From an uncultured Methanosarcinales archaeon (lineage in GTDB: Archaea > Nanobdellota > Nanobdellia > Woesearchaeales > JAGVZT01), in assembly GCA_964419615.1 (NCBI GenBank), contig CAYQPU010000018.1:1-31674 (forward strand): a DNA stretch of 31,674 nucleotides. Reading direction: 5' to 3'. The position numbers were made by a program, and so were the translations under genes. Below, in pieces: positions 1 to 20,105 of the stretch. Under the pieces are notes generated by a model. The model was not told the DNA's origin and made no database searches. It worked only from the letters and a program-made list of their open reading frames with translations. The first letter of the stretch is position 1, and every line of letters begins with the position of its first letter.

Positions 1-13
1 AAACTTGGTTGCC

Positions 14-859: not shown

Positions 860-891
860 AAAACAACTAGAATCAGTTCAGCTAATAAATT

Positions 892-1680: not shown

Positions 1681-1725
1681 TAAAATGGGGAATCTAAATT
1701 GATTTATATATATTGAGATATTAGT

Positions 1726-2465: not shown

Positions 2466-2504
2466 ATGAAAAGAGAATATAAACTAATTTAAATACATTA
2501 TTTG

Positions 2505-2530
2505 AGAAAAATAAGTAAAAAAAGAAAGAA
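2505..2530 (-). terminator. Oligo-T tract, probable archaeal intrinsic terminator of the ubiB/phasin operon
   Basis: Minus strand reads TTCTTTCTTTTTTTACTTATTTTTCTC directly after the stop codon at 2533-2531. Confidence 0.55.
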
Positions 2531-2956
2531 TCAGCGTTTTTTTGCTCTTTTTTTAGTAGAAGGCTTTCTTTTAACTGGTTTTTTCCTTGCTACCTTCTTT
2601 TTCACAGGTTTCTTTTTAGAAACTTTCCTAGCCTTTTTCTTTACAGCCTTCTTTTTTGCTGGAGCAGAAACCATTCTTTCAAGCTCTGCAATCCTCTTGC
2701 TAAGCTTTGTTAACTCTTTTCTGGTTGCAGGACCAACAGTTTTTACAGCCTTCTTAGTATGCTTTTTTACAAGCTTTTCAACATTCTTCCTCTGCTTTGC
2801 AGATTCATCCATCATAGAACTAACTAATCTATCTCCTTCTTTTTTTGAGAGTTTGCCTTGCTTGACCATCTCATTTACAACCTTTTTGGCTGTATCTCTT
2901 GTCAATACCGCAGCACCAACTCCTAACATGAATATTTTACTTAATGTTTTTTTCAT
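2531..2956 (-). CDS. Phasin/PhaF-like protein with Lys-rich histone H1-like tail
   Basis: N-terminal LGVGAAVLTRDTAKKVVNEMVKQGKLSKKEG resembles the phasin-like family found beside UbiB kinases. C-terminal KKKAVKKKARKVSKKKPVKKK tail. GAGGTGA RBS overlaps the upstream stop. Confidence 0.7.
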   Translation of the reverse strand: MKKTLSKIFMLGVGAAVLTRDTAKKVVNEMVKQGKLSKKEGDRLVSSMMDESAKQRKNVEKLVKKHTKKAVKTVGPATRKELTKLSKRIAELERMVSAPAKKKAVKKKARKVSKKKPVKKKVARKKPVKRKPSTKKRAKKR

Positions 2957-2960
2957 TTAA

Positions 2961-4619
2961 TCACCTCAATTTTTTTGTACGAAAGTTAGATACAACCACG
3001 TAAAACAAAAGAGTGGTTGCTATTGATAAATACATAAACGAAAACAAAGGTACTCCCCAAACAACTCGCTCGCTATATGGAAGCACCATTGCAGCTCCAA
3101 TAACAAGTGAAACAATTATCAAACCAAAAACAAGATTAATTGTAGATCTGCTAATCTCTCTGGTTAACATCCCCATATCTTTTTGAATTAATTTAATTGT
3201 ATTATCAGCTGACTTAAATTCCATTAAAAACTCCTCTGATTTGTCAGGAAGATTCTTCATAAATCTCATAACTTTGTGCGAATAAGTATGTGTTTTTCTA
3301 AAAGCCTTTTTAGGGCTGAGTCTCTTTTTTTCAAGCTTTTTAACAAAAGGTTTTGCAGTTTCAAGTAAGTTAAAATTTGGATCAAGAATCTCACAGCTAC
3401 TCTCCAAAGTAACAATAGACTTGCACAGTAATATGAAATTCACAGGGAATCTAATTTTATACTCGCGAGCAATTGATAGTAAATTATGGAAAAGATCAGA
3501 TAAGTCCACATGTTTAATAGATGTACCTCTATACTCACTCAGGTGATCAACAAGATCTTCCTTTAAAGATTCCATATCAACAGGCTCAACAATAAAACCC
3601 ATATTGACCATGCACTCAGCAACCATATCAACATCTCCTCTGATTAAGGAAACAAACAAGTCTGCTGAATCTTCTTTTAGCTTTTCATCAAGAAAACCAT
3701 TGATGCCAAAATCAACAAGAGCAATTTTATTGTCCTTCAGCACAAATATATTAGCTGGATGTGGATCTGCATGGAAAAAACCATCTATGAATATTTGTTT
3801 TAAAAATGAGGTAACAAGATTGGTTGTAACTTTGTGCTTATTCAAACTGGTTTTTTTATTTTGAACATTTAAAAGTTCAGTTCCCTTGATAAGTTCAGTA
3901 GTCAAAACTTCATTGGTTGTATAATCCCAATAAACCTTTGGAATCTTTGTTGTCTTATCTTCCTTAAAACTACTATAAAACTTATCAATACTCTTTGCCT
4001 CTCTTACATAATCCATCTCTTTAATTGTATATTTTTGAAATTGTTTTACTATCTCAATAGGATCAACAAAAGATTGAGGAAAATGTTTTTTAACCAACTT
4101 AGCCAAGTAGAAAAGCAAATGGATGTCTGTATGAAATAACTCATTAACACCTGGTCTTTTAACCTTTACTGCAACTTCTTCTCCGCTCTTAAGTTTTGCA
4201 ATATGAACTTGACCAACAGAAGCTGCTGCAACTGGCCTGCTATTAAATTCCTTAAATAATTCTTTAACAGGTTTTCCAAGCTCTTTGTGAATAATTGCTT
4301 TTGCTTTTGAGCTTGGAAATGGTTTTACCTTATCCTGAAGTTTTGAAAATTCATTAGCATAATCTTTTGGAACCAAGTCTGGTCGTATGCTAAGCATCTG
4401 CCCAAGTTTAATAAAAGCTCCTCCCAATTCCTCAAAAGCTTTTCTTAACTTTTCAGGATTATCAGATTTCTTGAACTTGTGCTTTTTATTTTTCTTATGA
4501 AATGGAAGAATATGTGTTAATTTAATACCATGCAAAAGATAACCAAACTCATATTTAAACAAAACATTCACAATCTGTTTTAATCTACTAAAATCAGTTA
4601 CCTCTTTTTTTATGCGCAT
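2961..4619 (-). CDS. ubiB: UbiB/AarF/ABC1-family atypical protein kinase with C-terminal TM helices
   Basis: IKLGQ (KxGQ), AAASVGQVH, VAVKV, HADPHPANI and DFG motifs, plus two C-terminal hydrophobic segments. ATG at 4619 preferred over TTG at 4625. Confidence 0.9.
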   Translation of the reverse strand: MRIKKEVTDFSRLKQIVNVLFKYEFGYLLHGIKLTHILPFHKKNKKHKFKKSDNPEKLRKAFEELGGAFIKLGQMLSIRPDLVPKDYANEFSKLQDKVKPFPSSKAKAIIHKELGKPVKELFKEFNSRPVAAASVGQVHIAKLKSGEEVAVKVKRPGVNELFHTDIHLLFYLAKLVKKHFPQSFVDPIEIVKQFQKYTIKEMDYVREAKSIDKFYSSFKEDKTTKIPKVYWDYTTNEVLTTELIKGTELLNVQNKKTSLNKHKVTTNLVTSFLKQIFIDGFFHADPHPANIFVLKDNKIALVDFGINGFLDEKLKEDSADLFVSLIRGDVDMVAECMVNMGFIVEPVDMESLKEDLVDHLSEYRGTSIKHVDLSDLFHNLLSIAREYKIRFPVNFILLCKSIVTLESSCEILDPNFNLLETAKPFVKKLEKKRLSPKKAFRKTHTYSHKVMRFMKNLPDKSEEFLMEFKSADNTIKLIQKDMGMLTREISRSTINLVFGLIIVSLVIGAAMVLPYSERVVWGVPLFSFMYLSIATTLLFYVVVSNFRTKKLR

Positions 4620-4678
4620 TAACAAATCCTACAAGAATTCAATATATAAATTTATTGATTAATAGGACACACAAAGAA

Positions 4679-4830
4679 GGTTAGTGGCTCTGGGCCAGCT
4701 CGTTTGCCAGTTTGCTAACTAGTTTCTTAATTAAAAACAATATTACTTTTAAGATGGCAAACTGCTCTTTTCTTAATCTTACGACAATATAAGGCTCACT
4801 CACAAGAATTTGGCCTGGGAGCCACTAACC
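4679..4830 (+). ncRNA. Candidate structured ncRNA or 3' UTR element (about 152 nt)
   Basis: Perfect 12-bp terminal inverted repeat GGTTAGTGGCTC / GAGCCACTAACC, extended by GGGCCA/UGGCCU. Internal helices CAGUUUGCUA/UGGCAAACUG and UCUUAA/UUAAGA. G-U pairs favour the plus strand. Confidence 0.5.
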
Positions 4831-4849
4831 ATTATTAACAATAATAATC

Positions 4850-5527
4850 CTAATTAATAACAGTCCCTTCAAAATTCTTCCCTTCAATATATTTTTTTAG
4901 ATTAGAAATCTTTTTTCCGTTCATAATCACAACTTTAATCCCATTCTTCCTTGCACGCTTGCTTGCCACAGGATCAAAAGGAACATTCTTTCCTGGATCC
5001 CATTTGTCACCAGTAATTTTTAGAAAATCAGTCCAAGATATCTTATCAAGTGGTTTAGCATCCTTATTAAACCTAGGATCTTTGTCAAAAACATGATCAA
5101 TATTGGTTAAATTAATAACAGTCTTAATACCAAACTTTTTTGCCAATACAACAGCAGTGTTATCAGTACTTCTTCCTGGCTTCCAACCTGCAGCAATTAA
5201 AACATCCTCTTTAAACTTAATATCTGACCTTGGATTCTTAATCACTCTTTTATGAGCATGATCTCTGAAAATAGTTCTTAGCAAATGGGCATTTAATCTA
5301 GTGCTATGAATTCCAAGCCAGTCAATATCATCAGAATTAAGGTCAGAAACAGTTGATGCTGCATGTTGATATTTCCTGCAGATCTTACCTCCTCCAACAA
5401 CGATCACAAATTTATAACCCTTATCAATATAACTGACAATCAAGTCTCTAAACTTTTTAAGAAGTGAAATATCAATCTCTTCAGGAACAACAAGCGAACC
5501 TCCAAGAGATATAACAATCTTTTTCAC
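4850..5527 (-). CDS. pyrH: Uridylate kinase, archaeal type
   Basis: ISLGGS, VVGGGKICRKY, AGWKPGRSTD, TNIDHVFDKDP and PFDPVA motifs. Probable GTG start at 5527 behind a GGTGGT RBS. Confidence 0.93.
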   Translation of the reverse strand: MKKIVISLGGSLVVPEEIDISLLKKFRDLIVSYIDKGYKFVIVVGGGKICRKYQHAASTVSDLNSDDIDWLGIHSTRLNAHLLRTIFRDHAHKRVIKNPRSDIKFKEDVLIAAGWKPGRSTDNTAVVLAKKFGIKTVINLTNIDHVFDKDPRFNKDAKPLDKISWTDFLKITGDKWDPGKNVPFDPVASKRARKNGIKVVIMNGKKISNLKKYIEGKNFEGTVIN

Positions 5528-5528
5528 A

Positions 5529-5876
5529 TCAACCACCAATGCCAATCAAACTTACACCAATTAAAATAAACAAAATTCCTAGCCATTTGTAAACATTCAT
5601 CTTTTCCCCTAACATTCTTTCTGACAAAAAAGCAACCCAAATATAAGTTGTAGAAATTAATGGATATAAAATTGAAAGTTCTCCTCCACGTAAAGCAAGA
5701 ATATAAATCACAGTCCCAAAACCGTAAACCAAAACACCCCCAATAAGATATTTGTTTGTTAATAATGATTTTAATTTAAACTCTAAACTATCTGCAGCCT
5801 TTTTTAGCAAGATCCCACCATAAGCGCCAGCAAGGCAGCCAGTCAAAACCATTAGCACAGACAATAATTGTGTCAT
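5529..5876 (-). CDS. DMT-superfamily (EamA/ArnE-F-like) 4-TM half-transporter
   Basis: 115 aa, four hydrophobic helices, ELSILYPLISTTYIWV and LGEKMNVYKWLGILFILIGV. Confidence 0.85.
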   Translation of the reverse strand: MTQLLSVLMVLTGCLAGAYGGILLKKAADSLEFKLKSLLTNKYLIGGVLVYGFGTVIYILALRGGELSILYPLISTTYIWVAFLSERMLGEKMNVYKWLGILFILIGVSLIGIGG

Positions 5877-6232
5877 TTTTGACTCCCCACACCAATAAAG
5901 CTAACTCCTACTACAATTGCAGCTACACCAAACCATTTCATCTGATTCATTGTATCGGTTAAAAAGACCTTCGGAGCAGCTAAACTCACCCAAACATAAC
6001 TCAAAGCAATTAATGGATATAAAACTGAAATCTCTCCACCTCTAAACGAAATAACCATTAATGCAGCTGATATAATATATAAGAATCCACCAATAATAAG
6101 TGGCCAATTAGTCAAAAGCGCTAACAAATTGGGTTCTAGTCTTAAAGCAGCCATCTTATAAAGTATCTGAGCAACAGAAGTCAAGAACGTAAAAAAAATC
6201 ACAAGAGCAATTGCCCATGGTTTAGTTTTCAT
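5873..6232 (-). CDS. DMT-superfamily (EamA/ArnE-F-like) 4-TM half-transporter, partner of the next gene
   Basis: 119 aa, AQILYK in TM1, EISVLYPLIALSYVWV. ATGA stop/start overlap with the paralog. Confidence 0.85.
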   Translation of the reverse strand: MKTKPWAIALVIFFTFLTSVAQILYKMAALRLEPNLLALLTNWPLIIGGFLYIISAALMVISFRGGEISVLYPLIALSYVWVSLAAPKVFLTDTMNQMKWFGVAAIVVGVSFIGVGSQK

Positions 6233-6256
6233 AATAAATGTGAGTTGCTTGGAGGT

Positions 6257-6757
6257 TTAAAAAGATTGTGATTGTGAAGACCTAAATAAACAATAAGCTA
6301 TCGCTATCTCTCTTCCAACTTTTTTGCAGGTTTTATTATAATGCGCTACCCAATCATAATGCCTCCTGCTAATTATTCCGCTGGGATATTCTATGTGATC
6401 ACTTGGATATAGAATATTAATCTCTTGGTTCTTTACAACTGTCACCAGCTCTTTACCCATACTAGCATTACAGCAATAAACTAGGAGTTCATGACCCTTA
6501 TCATCAACTCTATCTTCAAGTTGGTCCTTTATTCTAGACCTAATCTCTAGCCCCAAATTGATGTCATCAATTGTTAAGGTTAACTTTGGTTTATCACCCC
6601 CCCTAAACTCACCACTCATACCCTCTGGTACAAAATCCATTACACCCATCAAGATATAATTGAAATGTCCAATCATATATTGCCGTTCTTTACTAATATA
6701 CACATCTTTTCTTTCTAAATAATTCCTGATTTTTTTTTGAATGTTTTTTAGTCTCAT
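6257..6757 (-). CDS. Hypothetical protein, paralog A (PEGxxG / YCC / HYxxTC)
   Basis: 166-aa ORF coupled to 6754-7200 by an ATGA overlap and sharing three motifs with it. Confidence 0.75.
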   Translation of the reverse strand: MRLKNIQKKIRNYLERKDVYISKERQYMIGHFNYILMGVMDFVPEGMSGEFRGGDKPKLTLTIDDINLGLEIRSRIKDQLEDRVDDKGHELLVYCCNASMGKELVTVVKNQEINILYPSDHIEYPSGIISRRHYDWVAHYNKTCKKVGREIAIAYCLFRSSQSQSF

Positions 6758-7200
6758 TTTGTGTGACTATTAACCCCACAATAATGGACATATGCATCTG
6801 CAACAAGATCCAACAAATCCACACATGTTTCATGGTAATGAGTAAAAGGATTTACATTTGGATTACACTCTGGTTTAAATGGGTGCTTTAAATATAACTG
6901 ATTTCCAAACATGCTTGCTACAGTAGAACTGTGCCAGTCAGTGTCCTCACAACAATAAAAAACACTTTTCCAACCTTCATCAATAGATCGAAGCTTTTCT
7001 ATTGCTTTTTTTCTAACAACAGGCATAACATTTTCATACAGATCCCTATTAAATGTTAACTCAAATCTATACTCCATTATGATCTCTGGATGTGTTGGAC
7101 TCATAATATTAACAATAAGCCCATTTAGTCCCTCTGGTAAATCCATCTTGCCAGTTGTCATTGATTCATAAAGCATTTTACTGATTTCTTGTTTGTCCAT
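6754..7200 (-). CDS. Hypothetical protein, paralog B (PEGxxG / YCC / HYxxTC)
   Basis: 148-aa ORF in a tightly packed run, with motifs shared with 6257-6757. Confidence 0.75.
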   Translation of the reverse strand: MDKQEISKMLYESMTTGKMDLPEGLNGLIVNIMSPTHPEIIMEYRFELTFNRDLYENVMPVVRKKAIEKLRSIDEGWKSVFYCCEDTDWHSSTVASMFGNQLYLKHPFKPECNPNVNPFTHYHETCVDLLDLVADAYVHYCGVNSHTK

Positions 7201-7206
7201 TTTAAA

Positions 7207-7542
7207 TTAATCCTCATGTATCCTATCAAACAATTCCTCTAATTGACCCATTTGAATAATTGAATCTTTATCATAAAAAACATAATCCGAATTAACCCAC
7301 ACATAACTATTTCCATACAAAATAACATGGGCGTGTTCATAACGTTCGTGTAATTTTATACAAATGTCAGCATTCCTTTCCCTACCTAAAGCAGCCAAAG
7401 GATCTGGAACTTTAACATCAGGATGTACCTCTGCCTCAGTATATTTGTCATCTTCTGGACCTTTGTAATACACCACATCTCCCATATTAAAAAACTCAGG
7501 TCCTAATCTTGGTGCAATATATTCTTCACTCATTTTCTTCAA
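7207..7542 (-). CDS. Hypothetical acidic protein
   Basis: 111-aa ORF (start may be the second Met at 7533), packed between neighbours with a 6-nt gap and a short overlap. Confidence 0.7.
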   Translation of the reverse strand: MKKMSEEYIAPRLGPEFFNMGDVVYYKGPEDDKYTEAEVHPDVKVPDPLAALGRERNADICIKLHERYEHAHVILYGNSYVWVNSDYVFYDKDSIIQMGQLEELFDRIHED

Positions 7543-7945
7543 ATCTCATTTCTAGTTCTTCATTATAAGCTAGTTCAAGTTTGCAATATTCTGTACTTAT
7601 TCTTGAATTTCCATCAAGTGCCAATAAAAATTTATGGGGGAATCTTGGATTACTAATCGCCATCATAAACCCAACAGGTGCACCATGCTTTACATTTAAT
7701 TTAACATCACATGTCTTGTGATCCAAACTACCCAAGCAAACCACTGAGCCTTCCATCTGAGATATACTTTCACCTCTTAAAACTTTTAAATAGTCAATTG
7801 CATGCTCTCCTGGTGCATATCTCATTACATGAAATTTCTTTCCTGCAGTGCTGGGAATAAAAGCAACAACACACTCTTTTTTAATCTCAGCTGCAGTTTC
7901 AACTTGTTCTCCTTGTGTAAGTAAGTAATCTATGGTTTTTTCCAT
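7526..7945 (-). CDS. Hypothetical protein
   Basis: First gene of the four-ORF run. ATG at 7945 lies about 30 nt below a TTTATAA box; TTG at 7966 is the alternative start. Confidence 0.7.
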   Translation of the reverse strand: MEKTIDYLLTQGEQVETAAEIKKECVVAFIPSTAGKKFHVMRYAPGEHAIDYLKVLRGESISQMEGSVVCLGSLDHKTCDVKLNVKHGAPVGFMMAISNPRFPHKFLLALDGNSRISTEYCKLELAYNEELEMRFEENE

Positions 7946-7974
7946 TTCTTTATTTGATAGTAACAAACAACAAC

Positions 7975-8005
7975 TTATAAATACTAGTAACTCCTCTGGG
8001 GAGTT
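7975..8005. promoter_or_regulatory. Shared TATA element plus AACTCC-N5-GGAGTT inverted repeat in the divergent promoter
   Basis: TTATAAAT at 7975-7982 is about 30 nt from both divergent starts. Inverted repeat at 7989-7994 / 8000-8005. Confidence 0.45.
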
Positions 8006-8008
8006 GTA

Positions 8009-8782
8009 ATGACATCATTAAGAGAAATAGGCTTAACAGAATATGAAGAAAAAATATACCTAACACTACTAAAGCAAGGCACTCTTACAGGTGGTCAAGT
8101 ATCAAAGTTATCTAAAGTACCGCATGGTAGAACATATGAAGTTTTAAACAACTTGGCTGAAAAAGGCTTTGTTTCCGTACTTCCAATTAAGCCAAAAATA
8201 TTCAAAGCAGTTGATCCAAAAATAGCAATTAACTCAACCATAAACAACCAGATTAATGATTTACATGAACTTGGAAAAATAATCCCTTCTCAACTTAAAG
8301 CATACAATCCCTTACCAAAAAGAAAAAAAAACGATCAGCACATCACAATTCTTGCTGGCAGAAAGAACATGATTAATATAATCATTAACAGCATTAATTG
8401 TGCACAAAAATACATAAAAACAATGTACACTTACGAGCTTGATCCACATGGTATGGTCAGAGTGCAAAATGAGGCTCTTAAGCGAGGTGTTAAAATCAAA
8501 CAAATCGCAACTAAACTTACAAGACAAGGCTTAAAATGGATGAGAAGAGACATTAAAAGAGGAATACAAGTTAGATACTATCCAGTTGAAGAACTAAGAT
8601 TTACAGTGCGTGATGGAACAACAAGCTTTCAAACAATGCTTAATCCCAGAAATCCAAAAGATAGGATAACTATACTTGCAGAAAGTCTAGAATTCACGCA
8701 AGCATTTGAGCATTACTTTGATGTATTATGGAAAAAATCCACAAAAATTGAGAATATCAAACAAAAAGATATTTTAATATGA
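8009..8782 (+). CDS. TrmB-family transcriptional regulator
   Basis: N-terminal wHTH LREIGLTEYEEKIYLTLLKQG...SKVPHGRTYEVLNNLAEKGFV and a C-terminal PLD-like effector domain ending FEHYFDVLWKKS. Confidence 0.9.
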   Translation: MTSLREIGLTEYEEKIYLTLLKQGTLTGGQVSKLSKVPHGRTYEVLNNLAEKGFVSVLPIKPKIFKAVDPKIAINSTINNQINDLHELGKIIPSQLKAYNPLPKRKKNDQHITILAGRKNMINIIINSINCAQKYIKTMYTYELDPHGMVRVQNEALKRGVKIKQIATKLTRQGLKWMRRDIKRGIQVRYYPVEELRFTVRDGTTSFQTMLNPRNPKDRITILAESLEFTQAFEHYFDVLWKKSTKIENIKQKDILI

Positions 8783-8813: not shown

Positions 8814-11399
8814 ATGAAATACTATAGCATAAAAACAAAAGAAGTTCTAAATCAATTAAAAAGTTCAACAGAAGGTTTATCAGAAAAGGAAGCTGAAAAA
8901 AGAATTGAAGAGTATGGTCCAAATCAGTTGGAAGAAAAAGACAAGATCAAACCATTAACAATATTTCTCAATCAATTCAAAAGCTTTGTAATTGGTATAT
9001 TATTTGCAGTAATGTTAATATCTGTATTTTTACATGAATGGCCAGAAGCAATTGCAGTAGGAGTCATACTTGTATTAAATGCAATACTCGGATTTATTCA
9101 AGAGTACAAGGCAGAAAAAGCAATTGAAGCTCTAAAAAACATGGCAACTCCAAAAGCCAAAGTAATCCGTGATGGTAAATTAGTCGAGGTTGAATCAAAG
9201 GATGTTGTACCTGGAGATCTAATATCAATTGACACAGGAGACAAAATACCTGCAGACGCAAGAATTATTGAGGCAATGAGTTTTGAAACTCAGGAAGCAG
9301 CATTAACAGGAGAATCCTTACCAGTCAAGAAAACACTTGATCCCTTACCAGAAAAAACAATTGTTGCTAACAGAACCAATATGATCTATGCTGGGACTAT
9401 CGTCACAAAAGGACATGCAAAAGCAATTGTTGTATCAACTGGTATGAAGACTGAATTTGGAAAAATTGCAGAAATGATTCAGGCAACTCCAGAAGAACCA
9501 ACTCACCTTCAAATCAAGCTAAAAGAACTGGGACATTCTCTTGGAATCATGACTATAGTCATATGTGCATTAATATTTGGGGTTGGAGTTTTAAAGGGAA
9601 ACGAGATTATTGAAATGCTAATTAATTCAATAGCTTTAGCAGTTGCAGCAATCCCGGAAGGTTTGCCAGCAGTTGTCACAATCTCACTAGCACTAGGTGT
9701 GCAGCGTATGGTTCGCAAAAACGCCCTGATTAGGAAGCTGCCTTCAGTTGAAACCTTGGGATCAACAACAGTCATCTGTACAGATAAAACCGGTACATTA
9801 ACCCATAATGAAATGACTGTGAAAAAAATCTTTGTAAACAACAAGATAGTCAATGTAACTGGTTCAGGATATGAACCAAAGGGAGAATTTAGTGAAGATC
9901 CAAAGGGCTTTGAACTGCTCTTAAAGATTGGCACCCTAAATAATGATGCAACCTTACAAGAGGGTAAAGTTGTTGGTGATCCAACAGAAGGTTGTCTAAT
10001 TGTAAGTGCTGCAAAAGCAGGTATTGACAAAGACAAACTTGTAAAACAAAACCCCAGAACTGATGAAATACCTTTTGATTCTGAAAGAAAACTAATGACA
10101 ACTATCCACAAAACAAAAAGTGGAAAAGTAGCATTCACAAAAGGAGCACCAGATATTATACTTCATTTGTGTAACAGAATCTTAATCAATGGAAAAATCC
10201 AAAGGTTAACAAACCCAATTAAAAAGAAAATTCTCAAACAAGAAGATGAATTTGCAGCAGAAGCACTAAGAGTATTAGGATTTGCTTATAATGATGTAAA
10301 AGGAAAAGTCAAGGAAAAAGATATGATCTTTGTTGGATTACAGGCAATGATTGATCCTCCAAGGCAAGAAGTAAAAGAATCAATCGCAAAGTGCAGAAAC
10401 GCAGGAATCAAAGTAGTAATGGTAACAGGAGACTACAAAATAACAGCCCAGGCAATAGCCAAGGAACTTGGAATTGAAGGTGTAGCAATAACTGGAGAAG
10501 AACTAGACAAGATCAAGAATTTTGAGAAACAAATAGATGATATTGGAATCTATGCAAGGGTCAATCCAGAGCATAAGATGAAGATCATTGAAGCCTTTAG
10601 AAAAAAAGGACATATTGTGGCCATGACTGGTGATGGTGTAAATGATGCACCAGCACTAAAAAGAGCTGACATTGGAATAGCAATGGGCATAACTGGAACA
10701 GATGTTGCAAAAGAAGCTTCAGATATAATCCTCACAGATGATAATTTTGCAAGCATTGTTAATGCAGTTGAAGAAGGAAGAGGTGTTTATGACAACATAA
10801 AAAAATCAGTCAAATACCTCTTAAGTTGTAATCTAGGTGAAGTTCTAACAATCTTTTTTGGGATAGCTGTAGGCCTTCCATCTCCTTTGCTAGCGCTGCA
10901 ATTATTACTAATGAACATATTTACAGACGGAGGTCCAGCTTTAGCTTTAGCTGTCGAACCAATTGAATCTGATATTATGGAAAGAAAACCAAGAAAAAAG
11001 AACGAGAAAATATTCTCAAAATCAATTTTCTTCAATATGATGTTGGTTGGTTTAATAATGTGTGTTGGAACATTGGGGATATTTTACTTTTACTTAAGCA
11101 AAAGCACAGCATATGCTCAAACAATGGCTTTCACAACGTTAGTAATGTTCCAAATGTTTCAGGTATTAAACTGCAGATCAGAAGATAAATCCTTATTCAA
11201 AAAAGGTCTAATAACAAACAAATTTTTGCTATTGGCAATCTTGGTTTCATTAGGTCTGCAGCTGGTAGTATTGTACACACCAGCATCAGTATTATTTGAG
11301 ACAGTACCAATAACAATAATGGATTGGGTATACTTAACCCTTGTATCATCATCTGTCTTTGTAATTGTAGAACTTGTCAAAGTCTTTAAGAAAAAATGA
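8814..11399 (+). CDS. P-type ATPase, P2A (Ca2+-transporting type)
   Basis: TGES, IPEGLP, DKTGTLT phosphorylation site, DPPR, TGD, GDGVNDAP. GGGAGTG RBS. Confidence 0.95.
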   Translation: MKYYSIKTKEVLNQLKSSTEGLSEKEAEKRIEEYGPNQLEEKDKIKPLTIFLNQFKSFVIGILFAVMLISVFLHEWPEAIAVGVILVLNAILGFIQEYKAEKAIEALKNMATPKAKVIRDGKLVEVESKDVVPGDLISIDTGDKIPADARIIEAMSFETQEAALTGESLPVKKTLDPLPEKTIVANRTNMIYAGTIVTKGHAKAIVVSTGMKTEFGKIAEMIQATPEEPTHLQIKLKELGHSLGIMTIVICALIFGVGVLKGNEIIEMLINSIALAVAAIPEGLPAVVTISLALGVQRMVRKNALIRKLPSVETLGSTTVICTDKTGTLTHNEMTVKKIFVNNKIVNVTGSGYEPKGEFSEDPKGFELLLKIGTLNNDATLQEGKVVGDPTEGCLIVSAAKAGIDKDKLVKQNPRTDEIPFDSERKLMTTIHKTKSGKVAFTKGAPDIILHLCNRILINGKIQRLTNPIKKKILKQEDEFAAEALRVLGFAYNDVKGKVKEKDMIFVGLQAMIDPPRQEVKESIAKCRNAGIKVVMVTGDYKITAQAIAKELGIEGVAITGEELDKIKNFEKQIDDIGIYARVNPEHKMKIIEAFRKKGHIVAMTGDGVNDAPALKRADIGIAMGITGTDVAKEASDIILTDDNFASIVNAVEEGRGVYDNIKKSVKYLLSCNLGEVLTIFFGIAVGLPSPLLALQLLLMNIFTDGGPALALAVEPIESDIMERKPRKKNEKIFSKSIFFNMMLVGLIMCVGTLGIFYFYLSKSTAYAQTMAFTTLVMFQMFQVLNCRSEDKSLFKKGLITNKFLLLAILVSLGLQLVVLYTPASVLFETVPITIMDWVYLTLVSSSVFVIVELVKVFKKK

Positions 11400-13342
11400 C
11401 TGAACTAAAAAGAGTAATAGGTACAGGGACAATATTAGCCCTATCTATTGGGTCAGTTATGGGCACAGGAATTTTTCTTGGTCCAGCTATTGGTGCAGGT
11501 ATAGCAGGAAATGCATCTATCATAGCCTGGATAGTGCTTTCACTAGTAGGTTTATACATAGCCTCCTGTTTTGGAGAACTTGTTGCAATGTTTCCCAAGG
11601 CAGGTGGAGTATATGAATTTGGAAAGCAAACATACGGAAGATTCTTCTCATTCATAATTGGATGGGTAGCCTGGCTGGTTGGAAATATCACTACTGTTGT
11701 GCTAATAGTCGCCGGAGTGGAATACCTTTTACCCGGAAACTTTAAAGTTTTAAAAATAATCATTAGCATTGTCTTTTTGCTCATCCTCAATTTAATTGCA
11801 TTATTAGGAATGAAAGAAAGCTCGTTTATGGTTATAACCTTTACCGTGATTAGTATATTAGTCATAATTGGAGTATTAATCCCTGGTTTTTTCTCAATTA
11901 ATCCTGGTAATTATATCCCATTTTTTGCCGGAAGCTTAACACCAATATTTGTAACTCTATTTTTTATTGCAGAAAGTTTCTTTGGATGGGAAGCTGCAAC
12001 ATACTTAGCAGAAGAAACAAAAAATCCAAAAAAAGTAATTCCAAAAGCTCTTTTGGTTTCCACAATCATTGTTGCATTAATGAGTGTTCTTTTGGCAGTA
12101 ACCATGCTGGGAGTAATTAAATGGGATGTGCTTGCAAAATCAGCAGCTCCATTAAGAGACTTTTCTCAAATTGCATTTGGTAACCTTGGGTTTACTAACA
12201 TAAAAAAAGTAATGGATGTAATCAGCATAGGTGTTTATTTAACTTTACTGGGATCAGCTGCTGGAAATATAATAACAATGCCTCGTTTATTATTGGCTTT
12301 GGCTAGAGATAAACTGTTCTTAAAACAATTTACAGAAATTCATCCAAAATTTTTTACACCTCACAAAGCAATAATTTTCCAATTCTTTGCATGTCTGCTA
12401 ATTTTGTTCATAGGATTTGGAAGTTACACCACACTCCTTAGTTTACTTGTACCTCTCGGTTTAGTAATGTATGCATCAGTATTACTAGCTATTCCCATAC
12501 TAAGATTTAGAAAACCTGAAATCAAAAGAGAATTCAAAGCTCCATTAGGAAAAATTGGACCATTGATAATTGTATTATTCTTCCTTACCATGGTTGTTAT
12601 GTGGGCGACAACACAGGAAGGTTCGGGTAGAATATTGGGACTTGGTGGTTCACTAGTTTTAATAGGATTACCATTGTACTTACTCATTGAACTTTACAAT
12701 GATCCGCAAATGATCACAGAAGTAAATGACGTTCTTGCATATCTAACACTATTTACTGAAAGAATAAACCTTCCTAAAACAGTTCAAAAAGAAATCTTTT
12801 CTTTGATTGGAGATGTTAAAGGAAAAGATGTGTTAGAATTCGGCTGTGGTGTAGGAACACTAACTACAAAATTAGCCAAAGCAGTTGGCCCTGCTGGAAC
12901 AGTTTATGCAACAAGCTTTTCACAAAATCACCTAAAAATCACTCAAAAAAGAACCCAACTTAAAGATTGGGATTGTCAGGAAACATTATTTGGAGATGTC
13001 AAGTACATCCACGACCTTGAACACACATCAAGAGTCCATCCAGATGTTGGAAAAGTTGATGTTGCAGTATCAGTTGGAACAATCGGTTATGTGCAAGAGG
13101 TTGAAAAAGTACTAAAAGAAATAAACCAATTAATGCCTCAAACTGGCAGAATTGTTTTTGTGGATTATGGAGATTTTTTCCATATATTACCCAATGTGGA
13201 CTGGTTATCAACAAATGACAAAATTGAAAGAGTATTTAGAAACTGCGGTTTTTCTGTTCAGGTTGAAAGAAAAAAAGGATTATTTTGGAATTACATTTTC
13301 ATATATGGAATGAAATTTGGAAAAGATGTTCCATTTATCTAA
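11396..13342 (+). CDS. APC-family amino acid permease fused to a class I SAM-dependent methyltransferase-like domain
   Basis: TM1 GSVMGTGIF and TM6 GWEAATYLAEETKNPKKVIPKA, about 12 TMs. C-terminal VLEFGCGVGTL and VLKEINQLMPQTGRIVFVD. ATGA overlap with the ATPase. Confidence 0.85.
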   Translation: MTELKRVIGTGTILALSIGSVMGTGIFLGPAIGAGIAGNASIIAWIVLSLVGLYIASCFGELVAMFPKAGGVYEFGKQTYGRFFSFIIGWVAWLVGNITTVVLIVAGVEYLLPGNFKVLKIIISIVFLLILNLIALLGMKESSFMVITFTVISILVIIGVLIPGFFSINPGNYIPFFAGSLTPIFVTLFFIAESFFGWEAATYLAEETKNPKKVIPKALLVSTIIVALMSVLLAVTMLGVIKWDVLAKSAAPLRDFSQIAFGNLGFTNIKKVMDVISIGVYLTLLGSAAGNIITMPRLLLALARDKLFLKQFTEIHPKFFTPHKAIIFQFFACLLILFIGFGSYTTLLSLLVPLGLVMYASVLLAIPILRFRKPEIKREFKAPLGKIGPLIIVLFFLTMVVMWATTQEGSGRILGLGGSLVLIGLPLYLLIELYNDPQMITEVNDVLAYLTLFTERINLPKTVQKEIFSLIGDVKGKDVLEFGCGVGTLTTKLAKAVGPAGTVYATSFSQNHLKITQKRTQLKDWDCQETLFGDVKYIHDLEHTSRVHPDVGKVDVAVSVGTIGYVQEVEKVLKEINQLMPQTGRIVFVDYGDFFHILPNVDWLSTNDKIERVFRNCGFSVQVERKKGLFWNYIFIYGMKFGKDVPFI

Positions 13343-14551: not shown

Positions 14552-16189
14552 CTATAGACTTTTCAATATGTTATTGAAATCAGTTTCTTTAGCTAAAAGT
14601 AATTTAAACTTAGGTAATTCTTTTAATCCAGGATTAACCTTTATACTATCAACATCCACAATCTCTTGTTTTGTTTTGTAATACAAAGTATTTGGTCTAA
14701 ATCCAGATTCTTTAAAACGCTTCTCCCAGGTTAAAACCTCAGATGCTGGTGCTGCAAAAAACCCACCCTGAATATCCAGTTTAATATCTGTCTTAAAAAA
14801 TCCATCCATATTATTGATTATTTTTCTATAGTATTTCTTTGCTTTTTTAATAAGTTTAATCAACTGCAAAGCATTAATTTCAGACAATTCATCTGGCGAA
14901 ACTATTTCAACCAGAGTGCTGTAAATCAGACTATTTTTTTCCTTCATCTCCTTAATCAAATTCTTAGCATACTCTTTTGATAGATCATTTTTTTCTTTTT
15001 TGTTAATATTACCATATTTTTCAAGAAGATGTCCAAATTGTTTGTTAATTGTCAAAGTAAACTCACTAAATCTGTACAATTGATTTTCAATCTCTTTTTG
15101 CACACTATTCTTACCAACAATTTTCAACAGATCCTTATTGGTATCCTTGAAAAAGAAAAAATTGTTTTTTGTCACTTCTTCAAGAGCAAAAACAAAAGCA
15201 TAACTTAGTTTATCATTTACCTTGTTGATATCAAAAGGAATATAATTAAGGCTTTGTGGAACAAAGGCAACTGTTGCTTTTGTTGAATGCAACTGAAAAG
15301 TGTTATTTGATCTAATCTCTCTATCTTTAATAATTTGTAAAGCCTCTTTCTTGCTGCAAGAAAAAACCACTAAATTTCCAGACGGAACAATAAGCTTTGG
15401 CTTATCTGTTTGCTCTAACAATAAACTAATATCATCCACAAGATGAATTTGAATTTCTTCAAGCCAATCAATTTCTTTAAAATAATTATCTTCTCTTATG
15501 ACCAATTTATTATGATAACCAATATTTCTTAAGAATCTGTTGTGAAACAAAAATTCTCTTCCAACAAGCATAAATAATTCTTTATACTGATCTTTGATAG
15601 ATTGTTTTTTTCCAAAAAACTTCATTTTTTTTAGGAAACTTCCTTTAAGATTATTGATGATCTTATTTTGTCTCTTCAAATTGGATTGTAATTCTTCTAA
15701 TTCTGAAAGAATCAAACTTATTGTCTCAATTTCAATTAGATTAATACCTTCAATCTGTTCCAGCATTAATCTAACATCATTTAATCCAATAATACCCATA
15801 TTCAAATACTGTTGGATTTCTCCTTGTATGCTTGGAACAAGATCAATTAACCCTTCAATTATTTTATTTGCTCTTTTATTATCAACAACATCTTGTTTCA
15901 AAATCCCTAGAAATCTCTTATCTAAAACCCTATTTGTTTTTAAAATAATTCTTTCATTAGATACAATATTTAATATCTGGTTGTTTATACTATAAAGCTT
16001 TGTTAAATCAGTTCTTGTGTTTTTAAACTTCCCTTCATTACACAAAGAGTGAATTTCCTCAACAAGATCCTTTTTTCTTGATTCTATACTTCGATCAAAG
16101 CTAAGCAGCTTATCTTCTGGTTTATTCTGCTGAATTTTTATATTAATATTCTTTAATCTATTAACCTCTTTTTCCAGCAAAGCTTTCAT
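14552..16189 (-). CDS. Hypothetical protein with N-terminal helical/coiled-coil region and globular C-terminal region
   Basis: 545-aa uninterrupted ORF, K/N/I/L-rich, visibly more AT-rich than its neighbours. Confidence 0.75.
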   Translation of the reverse strand: MKALLEKEVNRLKNINIKIQQNKPEDKLLSFDRSIESRKKDLVEEIHSLCNEGKFKNTRTDLTKLYSINNQILNIVSNERIILKTNRVLDKRFLGILKQDVVDNKRANKIIEGLIDLVPSIQGEIQQYLNMGIIGLNDVRLMLEQIEGINLIEIETISLILSELEELQSNLKRQNKIINNLKGSFLKKMKFFGKKQSIKDQYKELFMLVGREFLFHNRFLRNIGYHNKLVIREDNYFKEIDWLEEIQIHLVDDISLLLEQTDKPKLIVPSGNLVVFSCSKKEALQIIKDREIRSNNTFQLHSTKATVAFVPQSLNYIPFDINKVNDKLSYAFVFALEEVTKNNFFFFKDTNKDLLKIVGKNSVQKEIENQLYRFSEFTLTINKQFGHLLEKYGNINKKEKNDLSKEYAKNLIKEMKEKNSLIYSTLVEIVSPDELSEINALQLIKLIKKAKKYYRKIINNMDGFFKTDIKLDIQGGFFAAPASEVLTWEKRFKESGFRPNTLYYKTKQEIVDVDSIKVNPGLKELPKFKLLLAKETDFNNILKSL

Positions 16190-17089: not shown

Positions 17090-17662
17090 ATGGCTGAGCC
17101 GTCCTACTTTAGAAACGTTATTGAATTTTTCAATGACTTTGGGCTTTATGATGTAATATTACCCTTCTTACTAATATTTACAATTACATTTGCAATCCTT
17201 GATAAGACAAGAGTTTTTGGAAGCGACAAAATTGGAGATAACACATATCCAAAAAAGAGTATCAATGCGGTTGTAGCATTTGTAATAGCATTTTTTGTTG
17301 TAGCATCAGCACATCTAGTAGAAGTTATCACCAAAGTTTCATCTCATGTAGTTATTTTGTTAATGGCATCAGTTTTCTTCTTGACATTAGTTGGATCATT
17401 TATGAAAGAAACAGAAGAAGGAGTTTTTTTACCAGAAGGCTGGCAAGCCCCATTTATGATTGTAATGCTTATTGGAATTGTATTAATATTTTTGAATGCA
17501 CTTGGTTGGCTTGATAAATCATATACTTGGATACAACAGTATTGGTCAAATGACTTTGTCTCAGCTGGATTTTTATTACTAATTATTGCAGGTGTAATGT
17601 GGTTAGTCATGAAAGATAAGAAAGGATCAGGTTCATCTAGTTCAAATGGAGGAGAGGATTAA
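17090..17662 (+). CDS. Multi-TM membrane protein, paralog 1 of 3
   Basis: DVILPFLLIFTITFAILDKTRVFG...INAVVAFVIAFFVV, about 5 TMs, Gly/Ser tail. Confidence 0.8.
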   Translation: MAEPSYFRNVIEFFNDFGLYDVILPFLLIFTITFAILDKTRVFGSDKIGDNTYPKKSINAVVAFVIAFFVVASAHLVEVITKVSSHVVILLMASVFFLTLVGSFMKETEEGVFLPEGWQAPFMIVMLIGIVLIFLNALGWLDKSYTWIQQYWSNDFVSAGFLLLIIAGVMWLVMKDKKGSGSSSSNGGED

Positions 17663-17663
17663 T

Positions 17664-18275
17664 ATGGCAATTAGAAATTTTACTGATGTTTTTTTAAGAT
17701 TAGAATCAATGGGATTAACAGATGTGCTGCTCCCATTTTTATTAATCTTTACAATAGTGTTTTCAGTTCTGCAAAGGGTACACATCTTTGGTGATCGAAG
17801 AAATATTAGTGGTATTGTGGCAGTAATTTTGGCACTGCTTGTGGTAATACCTCATGTGACAGGAGACTATCCTCCTAATGCTGATATTGTTGAAATAATG
17901 AACAAAGCAATACCTAATGTATCAATTTTCATTGTAGCAATAGTTATGTTGTTAATCATGATTGGTGTATTTGGAGTTAATGTAAACATTGCAGAATCAC
18001 CATTAGGTGGGGTAGTGGCTTTAGTTTCATTCTTAATTGTTGGAGCAATCTTTGCCAATAGTGCAGGATGGTTTGGAAACAGAAACTTGCCACCCTGGTT
18101 GTCTTTTTTAGGTGATGCTGACACGCAAGCTCTCATAATTGTATTACTATTCTTTGGTATTATTGTATGGTTCGTGACTAGTGAACCCAATGAAGGATCA
18201 AGTATTGGAGATGGATTAACAGGGATGTTAAGTTCCCTTGGTCAATCTATTCAAAGAAGAGGTAGAAATCCTTAA
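17664..18275 (+). CDS. Multi-TM membrane protein, paralog 2 of 3
   Basis: DVLLPFLLIFTIVFSVLQRVHIFG...ISGIVAVILALLVV. ATG at 17664 follows a GGAGGAGAGG RBS. Confidence 0.8.
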   Translation: MAIRNFTDVFLRLESMGLTDVLLPFLLIFTIVFSVLQRVHIFGDRRNISGIVAVILALLVVIPHVTGDYPPNADIVEIMNKAIPNVSIFIVAIVMLLIMIGVFGVNVNIAESPLGGVVALVSFLIVGAIFANSAGWFGNRNLPPWLSFLGDADTQALIIVLLFFGIIVWFVTSEPNEGSSIGDGLTGMLSSLGQSIQRRGRNP

Positions 18276-18277
18276 AG

Positions 18278-18871
18278 ATGGCGACAATATTTGATATAGG
18301 TTTGTTAGAATATTTCTCACCTATATTCACATTTATTTTCATTTTCGTTGCAATGTTTGGTATACTCCAAGTTGTCAAGATTTTTGGAGAAAAATCACAA
18401 AACCTTAATGCAATAATTGGTTTTTGTATTGCATTATTCCTAACATTTGCAGATAAACCAAGATTAATAGTTAATGGTATGATTCCTTGGTTTGCACTAA
18501 TGTTTGTATTTGGTCTATTTTTACTCACTGCAATGAGATTCATATTTGGTTCTGAAGCTGGAGATTCAATGCTTCTTTCCATGCTTGGTGGGAAGACAGG
18601 AGCAGGTTGGTGGGTTGGTGTTGGAGCAATCATCATCTTAATTGTGGGCATTAGTTCAGTAATCGGTGATCCACTGGCGGATTCGGGAGAAAACGCTACA
18701 ACAGATGCTAGTACAGGTAATAGTGATGGATCCTCAGGGAGTACAGCAACAGATGATTACAGAACAAACGTACTCAACACATTGTATCATCCAAAATTAT
18801 TAGGTGCTGTAGTCCTTTTACTAATTGCACTATTTGCAATATTGTTAATTACCAGAACAGCAAGAGTATAA
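18278..18871 (+). CDS. Multi-TM membrane protein, paralog 3 of 3 (most divergent)
   Basis: PIFTFIFIFVAMFGILQVVKIFGE...LNAIIGFCIALFL, with an S/T/G/D-rich loop before the last TM. Confidence 0.8.
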   Translation: MATIFDIGLLEYFSPIFTFIFIFVAMFGILQVVKIFGEKSQNLNAIIGFCIALFLTFADKPRLIVNGMIPWFALMFVFGLFLLTAMRFIFGSEAGDSMLLSMLGGKTGAGWWVGVGAIIILIVGISSVIGDPLADSGENATTDASTGNSDGSSGSTATDDYRTNVLNTLYHPKLLGAVVLLLIALFAILLITRTARV

Positions 18872-20082: not shown

Positions 20083-20105
20083 TCCAAGTGGTGTTGGTCA
20101 AAAAT

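What the first reader, a model, noticed from the sequence alone, without database searches (positions are those of the whole stretch)
11396..13342. APC transporter fused to a possibly degenerate SAM-methyltransferase domain, coupled to a P2A ATPase
Seen: one uninterrupted ORF with about 12 TMs of an APC permease and a roughly 185-aa class I MTase fold (from about 12780). Motif I (EFGCGVG) is intact, but the end of strand 2 reads VYATSFS where the ribose-binding Asp/Glu normally sits. It overlaps the Ca2+-type ATPase stop (ATGA) downstream of trmB. Established: APC proteins often carry cytoplasmic regulatory domains (UspA, cNMP-binding, PTS-IIA); I do not know a characterised MTase fusion. Inference: a SAM/SAH-gated transporter, an import-and-methylate unit, or a pseudo-enzyme sensor within an ion-homeostasis operon.
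Basis: partly seen in the sequence, partly recalled or inferred. Interest (0 to 1): 0.7.

Follow-up and report, generated by a model that had tools for sequence, protein, structure and literature searches.

The report
Archaeal amino-acid permease fused to methyltransferase
This is a real single gene, common in one order of tiny DPANN archaea, that joins an amino-acid carrier to a SAM-type methyltransferase domain; the "missing" Asp is a maintained lineage variant, not decay, and nobody has yet shown what the enzyme half does.

Summary
ORF 11396-13342 (648 aa) is a 12-TM APC/LAT-like permease joined by a conserved helical linker to a class I methyltransferase (MTase) domain. Motif I reads EFGCGVG, strand 2 ends in VYATSFS, and the start overlaps the stop of a Ca2+-type P-type ATPase (ATGA).

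The fusion is a large, unstudied family: 191 species genomes, about 60% of sampled genomes in the window's order. No unfused ortholog was seen, and this MTase subtype occurs almost only in the fusion.

Asp is the usual strand-2 residue (81% acidic). The window belongs to a clade of 13 species with Ser, Thr or His instead. The rest of the SAM pocket is kept, and dN/dS on the MTase half is as low as on the permease or lower. "Degenerate" is therefore not supported.

The ATPase-permease operon recurs in about 10% of species at four or more places on the tree, but it is not a defining feature. A more frequent neighbour is a short Dph2-like gene.

Function remains unproven. I favour methylation of the cargo at the carrier's cytoplasmic mouth (about 0.4) over SAM/SAH gating (about 0.3). 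This scan had already noted the same family in other genomes.

The parts
8009..8782 (+). TrmB-family HTH transcription regulator, 31 nt upstream of the ATPase gene
   Evidence: PF01978 E 2.4e-21. Adjacent to the ATPase only in the window and its closest relative L016.
8814..11399 (+). P2A-type (LMCA1/PMR1/SERCA-like) cation P-type ATPase
   Evidence: TIGR01522 800.6 bits (cut-off 798.3) and TIGR01116 746 bits (cut-off 703). Best PDB match is LMCA1 9euq at 663 bits, then SPCA1. Ion specificity is inferred.
11396..11399 (+). ATGA overlap of the ATPase stop and the permease start
   Evidence: Read directly. Overlaps of 8-14 nt occur in L001/L016, L002/L017, L018, L055, L066 and L095.
11396..12700 (+). 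APC/LAT-like 12-TM amino-acid permease domain (residues 1-435)
   Evidence: PF13520 E 6e-50. Aligns end to end with xCT, LAT1/2, BasC, GkApcT and AdiC structures. TM1 GTG and TM6 FFGWE motifs are invariant. Model pLDDT is above 90.
12701..12805 (+). Conserved helical linker and N-terminal cap of the MTase domain (residues 436-470)
   Evidence: Strongly conserved...YYDPxMIxxVNDxLAYxTLLTERIxLPK.... pLDDT 81-94 in the full-length model.
12806..13339 (+). Class I (Rossmann-fold) SAM-MTase core (residues 471-648)
   Evidence: Pfam Methyltransf_23/31/12/11/25. Domain model pLDDT 91.9. Z 17-20 to solved class I MTases, top hit 3dh0.
12836..12856 (+). Motif I, EFGCGVG (E481-G487)
   Evidence: G483 in 186 of 189 and G487 in 183 of 189 family members.
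12914..12916 (+). Ser507 codon at the C-terminal end of strand 2, where the ribose-binding Asp/Glu usually sits
   Evidence: Family counts: D 148, E 6, S 20, H 7, N 6, T 1 of 189. The S/T/H clade of 13 species is shown on the tree.
12965..12985 (+). Loop insert with conserved Trp525 between helix B and strand 3
   Evidence: Present in the non-acidic clade and several other clades, absent from the large S485/D507 clade.
13013..13015 (+). Asp540 after strand 3 (motif III; expected contact with the adenine)
   Evidence: IHDL read. D in 156 and E in 8 of 189. The role is inferred from the general MTase pattern (PMC1282579).
13339..13668 (-). RNase P protein subunit Rpr2/Rpp21, convergent, overlapping the fusion's stop by 4 nt
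   Evidence: PF04032 E 1.5e-16. Conserved as a neighbour only in the three closest relatives.

Best explanation
The ORF is a working member of a large, uncharacterised family from one order of DPANN archaea (records labelled Woesearchaeota or Nanoarchaeota). A 12-TM LAT/APC-type amino-acid carrier is joined through a conserved helical linker to a cytoplasmic class I methyltransferase domain that occurs almost only in this fusion. Ser507 is a lineage-specific, selectively maintained replacement of the ancestral ribose-binding Asp in an otherwise intact pocket, so the domain most probably still binds SAM or SAH. The mechanism I favour is this: the domain sits at the cytoplasmic mouth of the carrier and methylates the incoming amino-acid-like or amine cargo, which traps or converts it as it enters. 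Shown: the architecture, its conservation, the purifying selection, the fold and the recurrent ATPase operon. Inferred: SAM binding, catalysis and the identity of the acceptor. The upstream Ca2+-type ATPase is co-transcribed here, but it is an optional partner and not part of the machine.
For: The fusion is real and ancient: 191 species genomes, and about 90 of 151 sampled genomes in the order carry this permease type, in ORFs of 620 aa or more wherever the contig allows. Even the members my MTase probe missed are fusions. The MTase subtype is specific to the fusion: nearly all of the 115 representative clusters at E below 1e-10 match at residues about 440-650 of proteins 600-700 aa long. Motif I, D540, D555 and many residues after strands 4 and 5 (S559, G561, Y565, Q567, F595, P599, N600, W603) are kept in 78-98% of 189 members; in class I MTases these regions line the catalytic pocket (PMC1282579). 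dN/dS for the MTase half against the permease half: 0.056 vs 0.073 (Ser507 pair), 0.101 vs 0.157 (His507 pair) and 0.03-0.05 vs 0.08-0.09 (Asp507 pairs). The closest solved relatives by sequence profile and by fold are small-molecule N-, O- and As-methyltransferases: PMT 5wp5 at E 8e-14, ArsM, 3dh0, Coq5, UbiG. The full-length model is confident across the linker (pLDDT 91, pTM 0.86), which suggests a fixed docking of the two halves. The motif II acidic residue is only 'partially conserved' among active Rossmann-fold MTases (PMC1282579).
Against: No assay, no ligand-bound model and no coordinates were available, so I could not check whether the SAM pocket faces the carrier's exit. Cytoplasmic tails on transporters are usually regulatory. 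No neighbouring gene suggests a use for a methylated product. Asp507 was lost at least 3 to 5 times, which an enzyme tolerates less easily than a sensor would. Between subfamilies the MTase half diverges much faster than the permease (21-26% vs 44-47% identity). The similarity to PMT and ArsM is generic and names no acceptor.
Confidence: 0.4

Rival explanations
1. SAM/SAH-gated carrier. The MTase fold is a non-catalytic ligand sensor, and its SAM or SAH occupancy opens or closes the permease allosterically, for example as feedback on uptake of methionine or another methyl-cycle amino acid.
For: There is a precedent: SAMTOR is a class I MTase fold that acts as a SAM sensor, with one Asp binding both ribose hydroxyls (PMC10883374). 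The conserved linker and the confident full-length model fit allosteric coupling. Repeated change at position 507 (D to S/T/H/N), together with 485 S to G, could tune affinity. No metabolic partner genes occur nearby.
Against: Strong conservation extends well beyond the SAM-contact motifs into the regions that usually form the acceptor pocket. The genome makes and recycles SAM itself (MetK, SAHH and MetE are present), so nothing points to methionine as the cargo. No permease position shifts together with residue 507.
Confidence: 0.3
2. The tethered MTase acts on something other than the cargo. Anchoring at the membrane would place it next to a lipid head group, a membrane protein or a passing soluble protein.
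For: The best sequence matches in the PDB are phosphoethanolamine N-methyltransferases. A CDP-alcohol phosphatidyltransferase gene lies near one homolog. A Dph2-like gene is the commonest neighbour.
Against: The PMT similarity is generic and covers mainly the SAM-binding half. The genome has a true Dph5 (TIGR00522, 291 bits), so no diphthamide step is missing. This MTase lineage is found almost only fused to this one permease lineage, which points to a joint function with the carrier.
Confidence: 0.12
3. Pseudo-enzyme. In the window's clade the domain no longer binds SAM and survives only as a structural or dimerisation module.
For: Ser replaces the ribose-binding Asp. A few very divergent short relatives also lack motif I (P0189, P0239).
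Against: All replacements in the clade are H-bond-capable (S/T/H). Motif I is canonical here (GxGxG). D540 and D555 are kept. dN/dS is 0.056 and only a few positions shift together with 507. The acidic residue is only partially conserved among active MTases.
Confidence: 0.1
4. Artefactual fusion caused by a sequencing or assembly error or a missed stop codon.
For: None found.
Against: The same single ORF occurs in 191 independent species genomes and hundreds of metagenome contigs, with no stop codons.
Confidence: 0.01

Closest known systems
LAT/SLC7-type and bacterial APC carriers with solved structures (xCT, LAT1/2, BasC, GkApcT, AdiC, ApcT)
   Same: A full-length 12-TM LeuT-fold match (E 1e-33 to 1e-19), with the TM1 G-T-G and TM6 F-G-W-E core motifs aligned to y+LAT1 SGWD and GkApcT IGFD.
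   Different: None of these carries a methyltransferase domain. The cargo and the coupling mode (exchanger or symporter) of the archaeal protein are unknown. All NCBIfam equivalog scores fall far below their cut-offs.
Minimal class I small-molecule SAM-MTases (Aquifex 3dh0; PMT 5wp5; ArsM; Coq5/UbiG; ChlM)
   Same: A seven-stranded Rossmann-type fold, Z 17-20 and rmsd 2.4-3.0 over 165-185 residues. Motif I is present, and so are the acidic residues after strands 3 and 4.
   Different: Only 11-21% identity and a flat hit list with no specific family. Ser replaces the Asp at the end of strand 2 in the window. The domain is fused to a membrane carrier and has family-specific motifs (RVHP, DFF...PNVxWL, RKKGLFWNY).
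SAMTOR (metazoan SAM sensor)
   Same: A class I MTase fold used to read SAM levels, with an Asp binding the ribose hydroxyls (PMC10883374). It is a model for how the domain might work if it is regulatory.
   Different: No specific sequence relationship was tested or seen. SAMTOR is soluble and signals through GATOR1, not through a fused transporter.
LMCA1 / PMR1 / SERCA P2A-type Ca2+-ATPases (the neighbouring gene)
   Same: Full-length match at 663 bits to LMCA1, and above the NCBIfam cut-offs for the PMR1 and SERCA types.
   Different: No known P2A ATPase is reported to work together with an APC carrier. The adjacency is present in only about 10% of species that carry the fusion.

Membership tests
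APC superfamily amino-acid permease (Pfam AA_permease_2, LAT/APA-like) | Profile match above the curated threshold over the whole transporter core | tested here: met
   PF13520 170.8 bits (cut-off 27), residues 9-403 against profile positions 2-405 of 427.
APC superfamily amino-acid permease (Pfam AA_permease_2, LAT/APA-like) | 12-TM LeuT fold collinear with solved APC carriers, which places both termini in the cytoplasm | tested here: met
   End-to-end alignments to xCT, LAT2, BasC and AdiC. The model shows helices throughout with pLDDT above 90. The cytoplasmic location of the C-terminus is inferred from those structures.
APC superfamily amino-acid permease (Pfam AA_permease_2, LAT/APA-like) | Unwound TM1 G-x-G and TM6 motifs that bind the alpha-amino and alpha-carboxyl groups | tested here: met
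   G23-T24-G25 and F196-G197-W198-E199 are invariant or nearly so and align with the y+LAT1, GkApcT and ApcT TM6 motifs.
APC superfamily amino-acid permease (Pfam AA_permease_2, LAT/APA-like) | Membership of a named equivalog with known substrate | tested here: not met
   The best NCBIfam hit, TIGR00909, scores 190.9 against a cut-off of 556.8, and all equivalogs fall far below their cut-offs.
Class I (Rossmann-fold) SAM-dependent methyltransferase | Profile matches above the curated thresholds | tested here: met
   Methyltransf_23 43.0, _31 38.9, _12 39.2, _11 36.4 and _25 34.0 bits, all above their cut-offs.
Class I (Rossmann-fold) SAM-dependent methyltransferase | Seven-stranded alpha/beta fold superposable on solved MTases | tested here: met
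   Model pLDDT 91.9. VIA-align Z 20.0 to 3dh0 (rmsd 2.8, 179 residues aligned) and Z of 17 or more to about 40 other MTases. Foldseek E 9e-12.
Class I (Rossmann-fold) SAM-dependent methyltransferase | Motif I, E/D-x-G-x-G-x-G | tested here: met
   EFGCGVG at residues 481-487.
Class I (Rossmann-fold) SAM-dependent methyltransferase | Acidic residue at the C-terminal end of strand 2 (motif II) that binds the ribose hydroxyls | tested here: not met
   Ser507 in the window, against D or E in 154 of 189 family members. The feature is only 'partially conserved' in the superfamily (PMC1282579), so its absence lowers the case for SAM binding but does not exclude it.
Class I (Rossmann-fold) SAM-dependent methyltransferase | Acidic residue after strand 3 (motif III) and acidic residue at the start of motif IV | tested here: met
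   D540 (IHD) and D555. D or E at 540 in 164 of 189; D at 555 in 168 of 189.
Class I (Rossmann-fold) SAM-dependent methyltransferase | SAM binding and methyl transfer | not testable with these tools
   No ligand co-folding and no model coordinates were available. This needs ITC or DSF and an activity assay.
Phosphoethanolamine N-methyltransferase (closest PDB family by sequence) | Specific full-domain similarity, including the acceptor-site residues | tested here: inconclusive
   Profile E 8e-14, but only over profile positions 7-128, the SAM-binding half. The fold Z of 17.5 is no better than for dozens of other MTases.
P2A-type Ca2+-ATPase (the neighbouring gene) | Equivalog-level profile score and a full-length match to a solved Ca2+ pump | tested here: met
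   TIGR01522 800.6 bits (cut-off 798.3) and TIGR01116 746.1 bits (cut-off 703.4). LMCA1 663 bits over residues 5-860. Ion-site residues were not examined.

The most novel reading that the evidence does not exclude
The family carries out transport-coupled methylation: a carrier-tethered methyltransferase modifies an amino acid or amine as it emerges from the permease. This would be a group-translocation-like trapping step, or the product could be exported again in a precursor/product exchange. It would be a new kind of transporter-enzyme unit, widespread in DPANN archaea. The Ser/His507 clade would then be a natural variant with altered SAM handling.
Probability: 0.3. Interest if true: 0.8.

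Novelty: new variant of a known kind. Interest (0 to 1): 0.5.

Why it matters
DPANN archaea have tiny genomes and depend on imported building blocks. This genome has only two APC-type permeases, and one of them is this fusion. The gene is kept in most sampled genomes of the order, always fused and under strong purifying selection, yet no member has been studied. If the methyltransferase acts on the cargo, it would be a new form of uptake coupled to chemical modification. If it senses SAM or SAH, it would be a prokaryotic counterpart of SAMTOR wired directly to a transporter. The natural Asp, Ser and His variants at the ribose-binding position provide a ready-made mutant series for testing either idea.

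Tried and rejected
1. SAM importer for an organism unable to make SAM: rejected. The 99%-complete genome has a bacterial-type MetK, SAH hydrolase and a MetE-like methionine synthase.

2. Substitute for a missing diphthine synthase, prompted by the Dph2-like neighbour: rejected. A true Dph5 is present (TIGR00522, 291 bits).

3. Assigning the MTase to a specific characterised family: not possible. Foldseek, VIA-align and the profile-against-PDB search all give flat lists of generic small-molecule MTases, and the protein atlas gave only generic MTase clusters.

4. Functional hints from extra domains in the 830-860 aa members: none, apart from a DUF3108 match in one.

5. A sister group with a different C-terminal domain: the apparent 770-850 aa open frames are ordinary fusions with a divergent MTase and an upstream stretch free of stops.

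6. Bacterial occurrence: the 'LCP-89 bacterium' record sits within the archaeal clade and has archaeal-type neighbours, so it is probably misbinned.

7. Literature: no paper on an APC-MTase fusion in the held library.

8. The promoter and terminator scan was at chance level and is not suited to archaea.

Their sequences show that most begin inside TM12 or the linker, so they are fragments or split forms.


Full report
OBSERVATION. The window holds one uninterrupted ORF at 11396..13342 on the plus strand, 648 aa. Pfam places AA_permease_2 on residues 9-403 (E 6e-50). Five class I methyltransferase (MTase) families match residues about 473-609, all above their gathering scores. Motif I reads EFGCGVG (12836-12856) and strand 2 ends in VYATSFS (12902-12922). 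In both AlphaFold2 models Ser507 is the last residue of strand 2. That is the position where, in Rossmann-fold MTases, a partially conserved acidic residue hydrogen-bonds the ribose hydroxyls of SAM (PMC1282579; the SAMTOR example is in PMC10883374). The upstream ORF 8814..11399 is a P2A-type pump: it passes the TIGR01522 and TIGR01116 cut-offs, and its best solved relative is Listeria LMCA1 at 663 bits. Its stop overlaps the permease start as ATGA. The gene at 8009..8782 is a TrmB-family HTH regulator. An Rpr2/Rpp21 gene converges on the 3' end, which marks the organism as an archaeon.

HOW COMMON IS THE FUSION. A search of 5.8 billion proteins returned more than 120 full-length homologs at 52-85% identity. 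All have the same two-domain architecture, and nearly all named ones are labelled Woesearchaeota or Nanoarchaeota. Among GTDB species genomes, 191 encode a relative. With the window's MTase domain as probe (E at most 1e-15), 102 of 301 high-quality genomes sampled from the phylum matched, almost all in the window's order and in ORFs of 630-740 aa. With the permease part alone, 95 of 151 genomes in the order matched. Hits at 33% identity or more were in ORFs of 620 aa or longer, except where a contig end cut the gene. The only unfused hits were distant paralogs at 27-32% identity. Members that the MTase probe had missed proved to be fusions with a divergent MTase domain (21-26% identity, against 44-47% for the permease). 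The tallies include three unpublished genomes (G244, G360, G369). No individual claim rests on them, and removing them would change the counts by at most two. Conversely, a search of 1.84 billion representatives with the MTase domain alone found 115 clusters at E below 1e-10, and nearly all matched at residues about 440-650 of proteins 600-700 aa long. The short hits mostly begin inside TM12 or the linker, so they are fragments or split forms. The two halves are thus an old and essentially obligate pair. The window's genome (1.48 Mb, 99% complete) has a single copy and only one other APC-type permease.

IS THE MTASE DOMAIN DEGENERATE? Among 189 full-length members, position 507 is D in 148, E in 6, S in 20, H in 7, N in 6 and T in 1. 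On a tree of 79 species sequences, the non-acidic state needs 3 to 5 changes. The main one is a clade of 13 species, with Ser in 4 (including the window), Thr in 1 and His in 8. Every replacement there is a polar residue able to hydrogen-bond. Motif I is canonical in this clade (GxGxG, whereas the Asp clade mostly has GxSxG), and D540 after strand 3 and D555 at strand 4 are kept. Only a handful of positions shift together with 507: residue 485, a loop insert with a conserved Trp, and residue 534. No permease position does. Nei-Gojobori dN/dS for the linker-plus-MTase half against the permease half is:
- 0.056 vs 0.073 for the window and its closest relative (dS about 1.3, close to saturation);
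- 0.101 vs 0.157 for a His507 pair (dS about 0.45);
- 0.03-0.05 vs 0.08-0.09 for three Asp507 pairs.
The domain is therefore under purifying selection at least as strong as the carrier, in every clade. This argues against a decaying pseudo-enzyme and for a tuned, still functional pocket. Whether that pocket binds SAM with Ser507 was not testable here.

STRUCTURE AND NEAREST RELATIVES. The domain model is confident (pLDDT 91.9, pTM 0.89) and has the canonical strand order. Foldseek and an exhaustive VIA-align search both return a flat list of class I small-molecule MTases: 3dh0 at Z 20.0, then YcgJ, OxaG, Coq5, RebM, PMT, UbiG, ChlM and ArsM, all at Z 17-19. A family profile searched against PDB sequences puts phosphoethanolamine N-methyltransferases first (E 8e-14), but only over the SAM-binding half. 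No specific acceptor can be read from this. The permease aligns end to end with xCT, LAT1/2, BasC, GkApcT and AdiC, and its TM1 (GTG) and TM6 (FFGWE) core motifs are invariant. By analogy with those 12-TM structures, the C-terminal domain is cytoplasmic. The full-length model has pLDDT 91 and pTM 0.86, with pLDDT 81-94 across the highly conserved linker (residues 431-470). This suggests a fixed docking of the two halves and not a loose tether.

THE ATPASE LINK AND OTHER NEIGHBOURS. Among 80 species loci, an orthologous ATPase (51-72% identity) lies directly upstream on the same strand in 8. These are the three closest relatives plus L021, L055, L066, L084 and L095. On the tree this needs at least 4 changes. 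The stop and start codons overlap by 8-14 nt in two separate clades: the window's own clade (L016, L017, L018) and the L055/L066/L095 clade. Four of five genomes without the adjacency carry the ATPase elsewhere. The operon is thus real and recurrent, either ancestral with repeated loss or repeatedly favoured, but it does not define the system. Calling it an ion-homeostasis unit goes beyond the evidence. The TrmB-like regulator and Rpr2 are neighbours only in the nearest relatives. The commonest neighbour is instead a short Dph2-like gene (213-236 aa) on the opposite strand upstream. It is within 5 kb in 37 of 80 loci, and I counted about 27 where it is the immediate divergent neighbour, on both sides of the tree. 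In the window's genome that gene lies on another contig.

HYPOTHESES TESTED AGAINST THE GENOME. A SAM importer is not needed, because MetK (bacterial type), SAH hydrolase and a MetE-like synthase are all present. A stand-in for diphthine synthase is not needed, because a true Dph5 is present. Members with extra C-terminal length carry no informative domain.

MOST LIKELY MECHANISM. The data fit a carrier with a rigidly attached, SAM-binding cytoplasmic domain. I favour catalysis on the cargo (about 0.4). Conservation reaches well beyond the SAM contacts into the loops after strands 4 and 5, which normally build the acceptor pocket (PMC1282579). The nearest relatives are small-molecule MTases. 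And the MTase lineage is bound to this one permease lineage. A SAM/SAH-gated carrier is nearly as likely (about 0.3). SAMTOR shows that the fold can serve as a sensor, transporter tails are usually regulatory, and repeated change at residue 507 would suit affinity tuning. Less likely are a membrane-anchored MTase acting on a lipid or protein (about 0.12) and a pure structural pseudo-enzyme (about 0.1). An artefactual fusion is excluded.

NOVELTY. Both domains are of known kinds, and transporter-enzyme fusions exist in general. I found no study of an APC-MTase fusion, and public records call these proteins only 'amino acid permease'. Earlier notes of this scan describe the same family in other genomes, and one follow-up reached the same 'real, conserved, unstudied' verdict. 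New in this report are the phylogenetic account of the Asp507 loss, the selection test, the measure of how obligate the fusion is, the quantified ATPase and Dph2 neighbourhoods, and the exclusion of the SAM-import and Dph5 ideas.

Noticed in passing
L003:5291-5932, L005:5231-5896, L006:5191-5883; own genome L008:1489-2184 (G000 contig C4): A short Dph2-like gene (213-236 aa, PF01866/TIGR00322, lacking roughly the first 70-90 model positions) lies upstream on the opposite strand from the fusion. It is within 5 kb in 37 of 80 species loci, and in about 27 it is the immediate divergent neighbour. In the window's genome it is unlinked, and a second N-terminal-like piece with internal stops lies on contig C1.
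   Followed up: partly
L099:86-2149, L100:1047-2912 (-), L101:1048-3099 (-): A divergent subgroup of the fusion. The permease is 44-47% identical to the window's, but the MTase domain only 21-26%. Motif I reads D-x-N/D-C-G-T-G and the strand-2 Asp is kept. Some members have an N-terminal extension of about 60 aa.
   Followed up: partly
genomes G242, G053, G064, G121, G287: Some genomes carry two copies of the fusion a few kb apart on one contig, as tandem paralogs.
   Followed up: no
window 17090-18871: Three consecutive same-strand ORFs of 190, 209 and 197 aa have no Pfam match. The same trio (191, 204 and 192 aa) is kept in the closest relative, L001.
   Followed up: no
window 14552-16189 (-): A 545-aa ORF with no Pfam match, conserved as a 544-aa gene in L001.
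   Followed up: no
window 25027-30990: A very long ORF (1987 aa) that I did not examine. A T2SSE-type ATPase gene (20088-22397) lies upstream.
   Followed up: no
L005 / L028 (NJBN01000005.1, bases 1-8566): A record labelled 'candidate division LCP-89 bacterium' carries the fusion at a contig end, next to a Dph2-like gene, and groups inside the archaeal clade. It is probably a misbinned or chimeric contig. Many MAGs labelled 'uncultured Methanosarcinales' also group with the Woesearchaeota-type sequences.
   Followed up: partly
own genome: L010 (G000 contig C32:6345-6764): This archaeal genome has a bacterial-type SAM synthetase (PF02773, E 3e-63), and the archaeal-type family PF01941 gave no match.
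   Followed up: no
window 13339-13342: The stop of the fusion gene and the stop of the convergent Rpr2 gene overlap by 4 nt.
   Followed up: no
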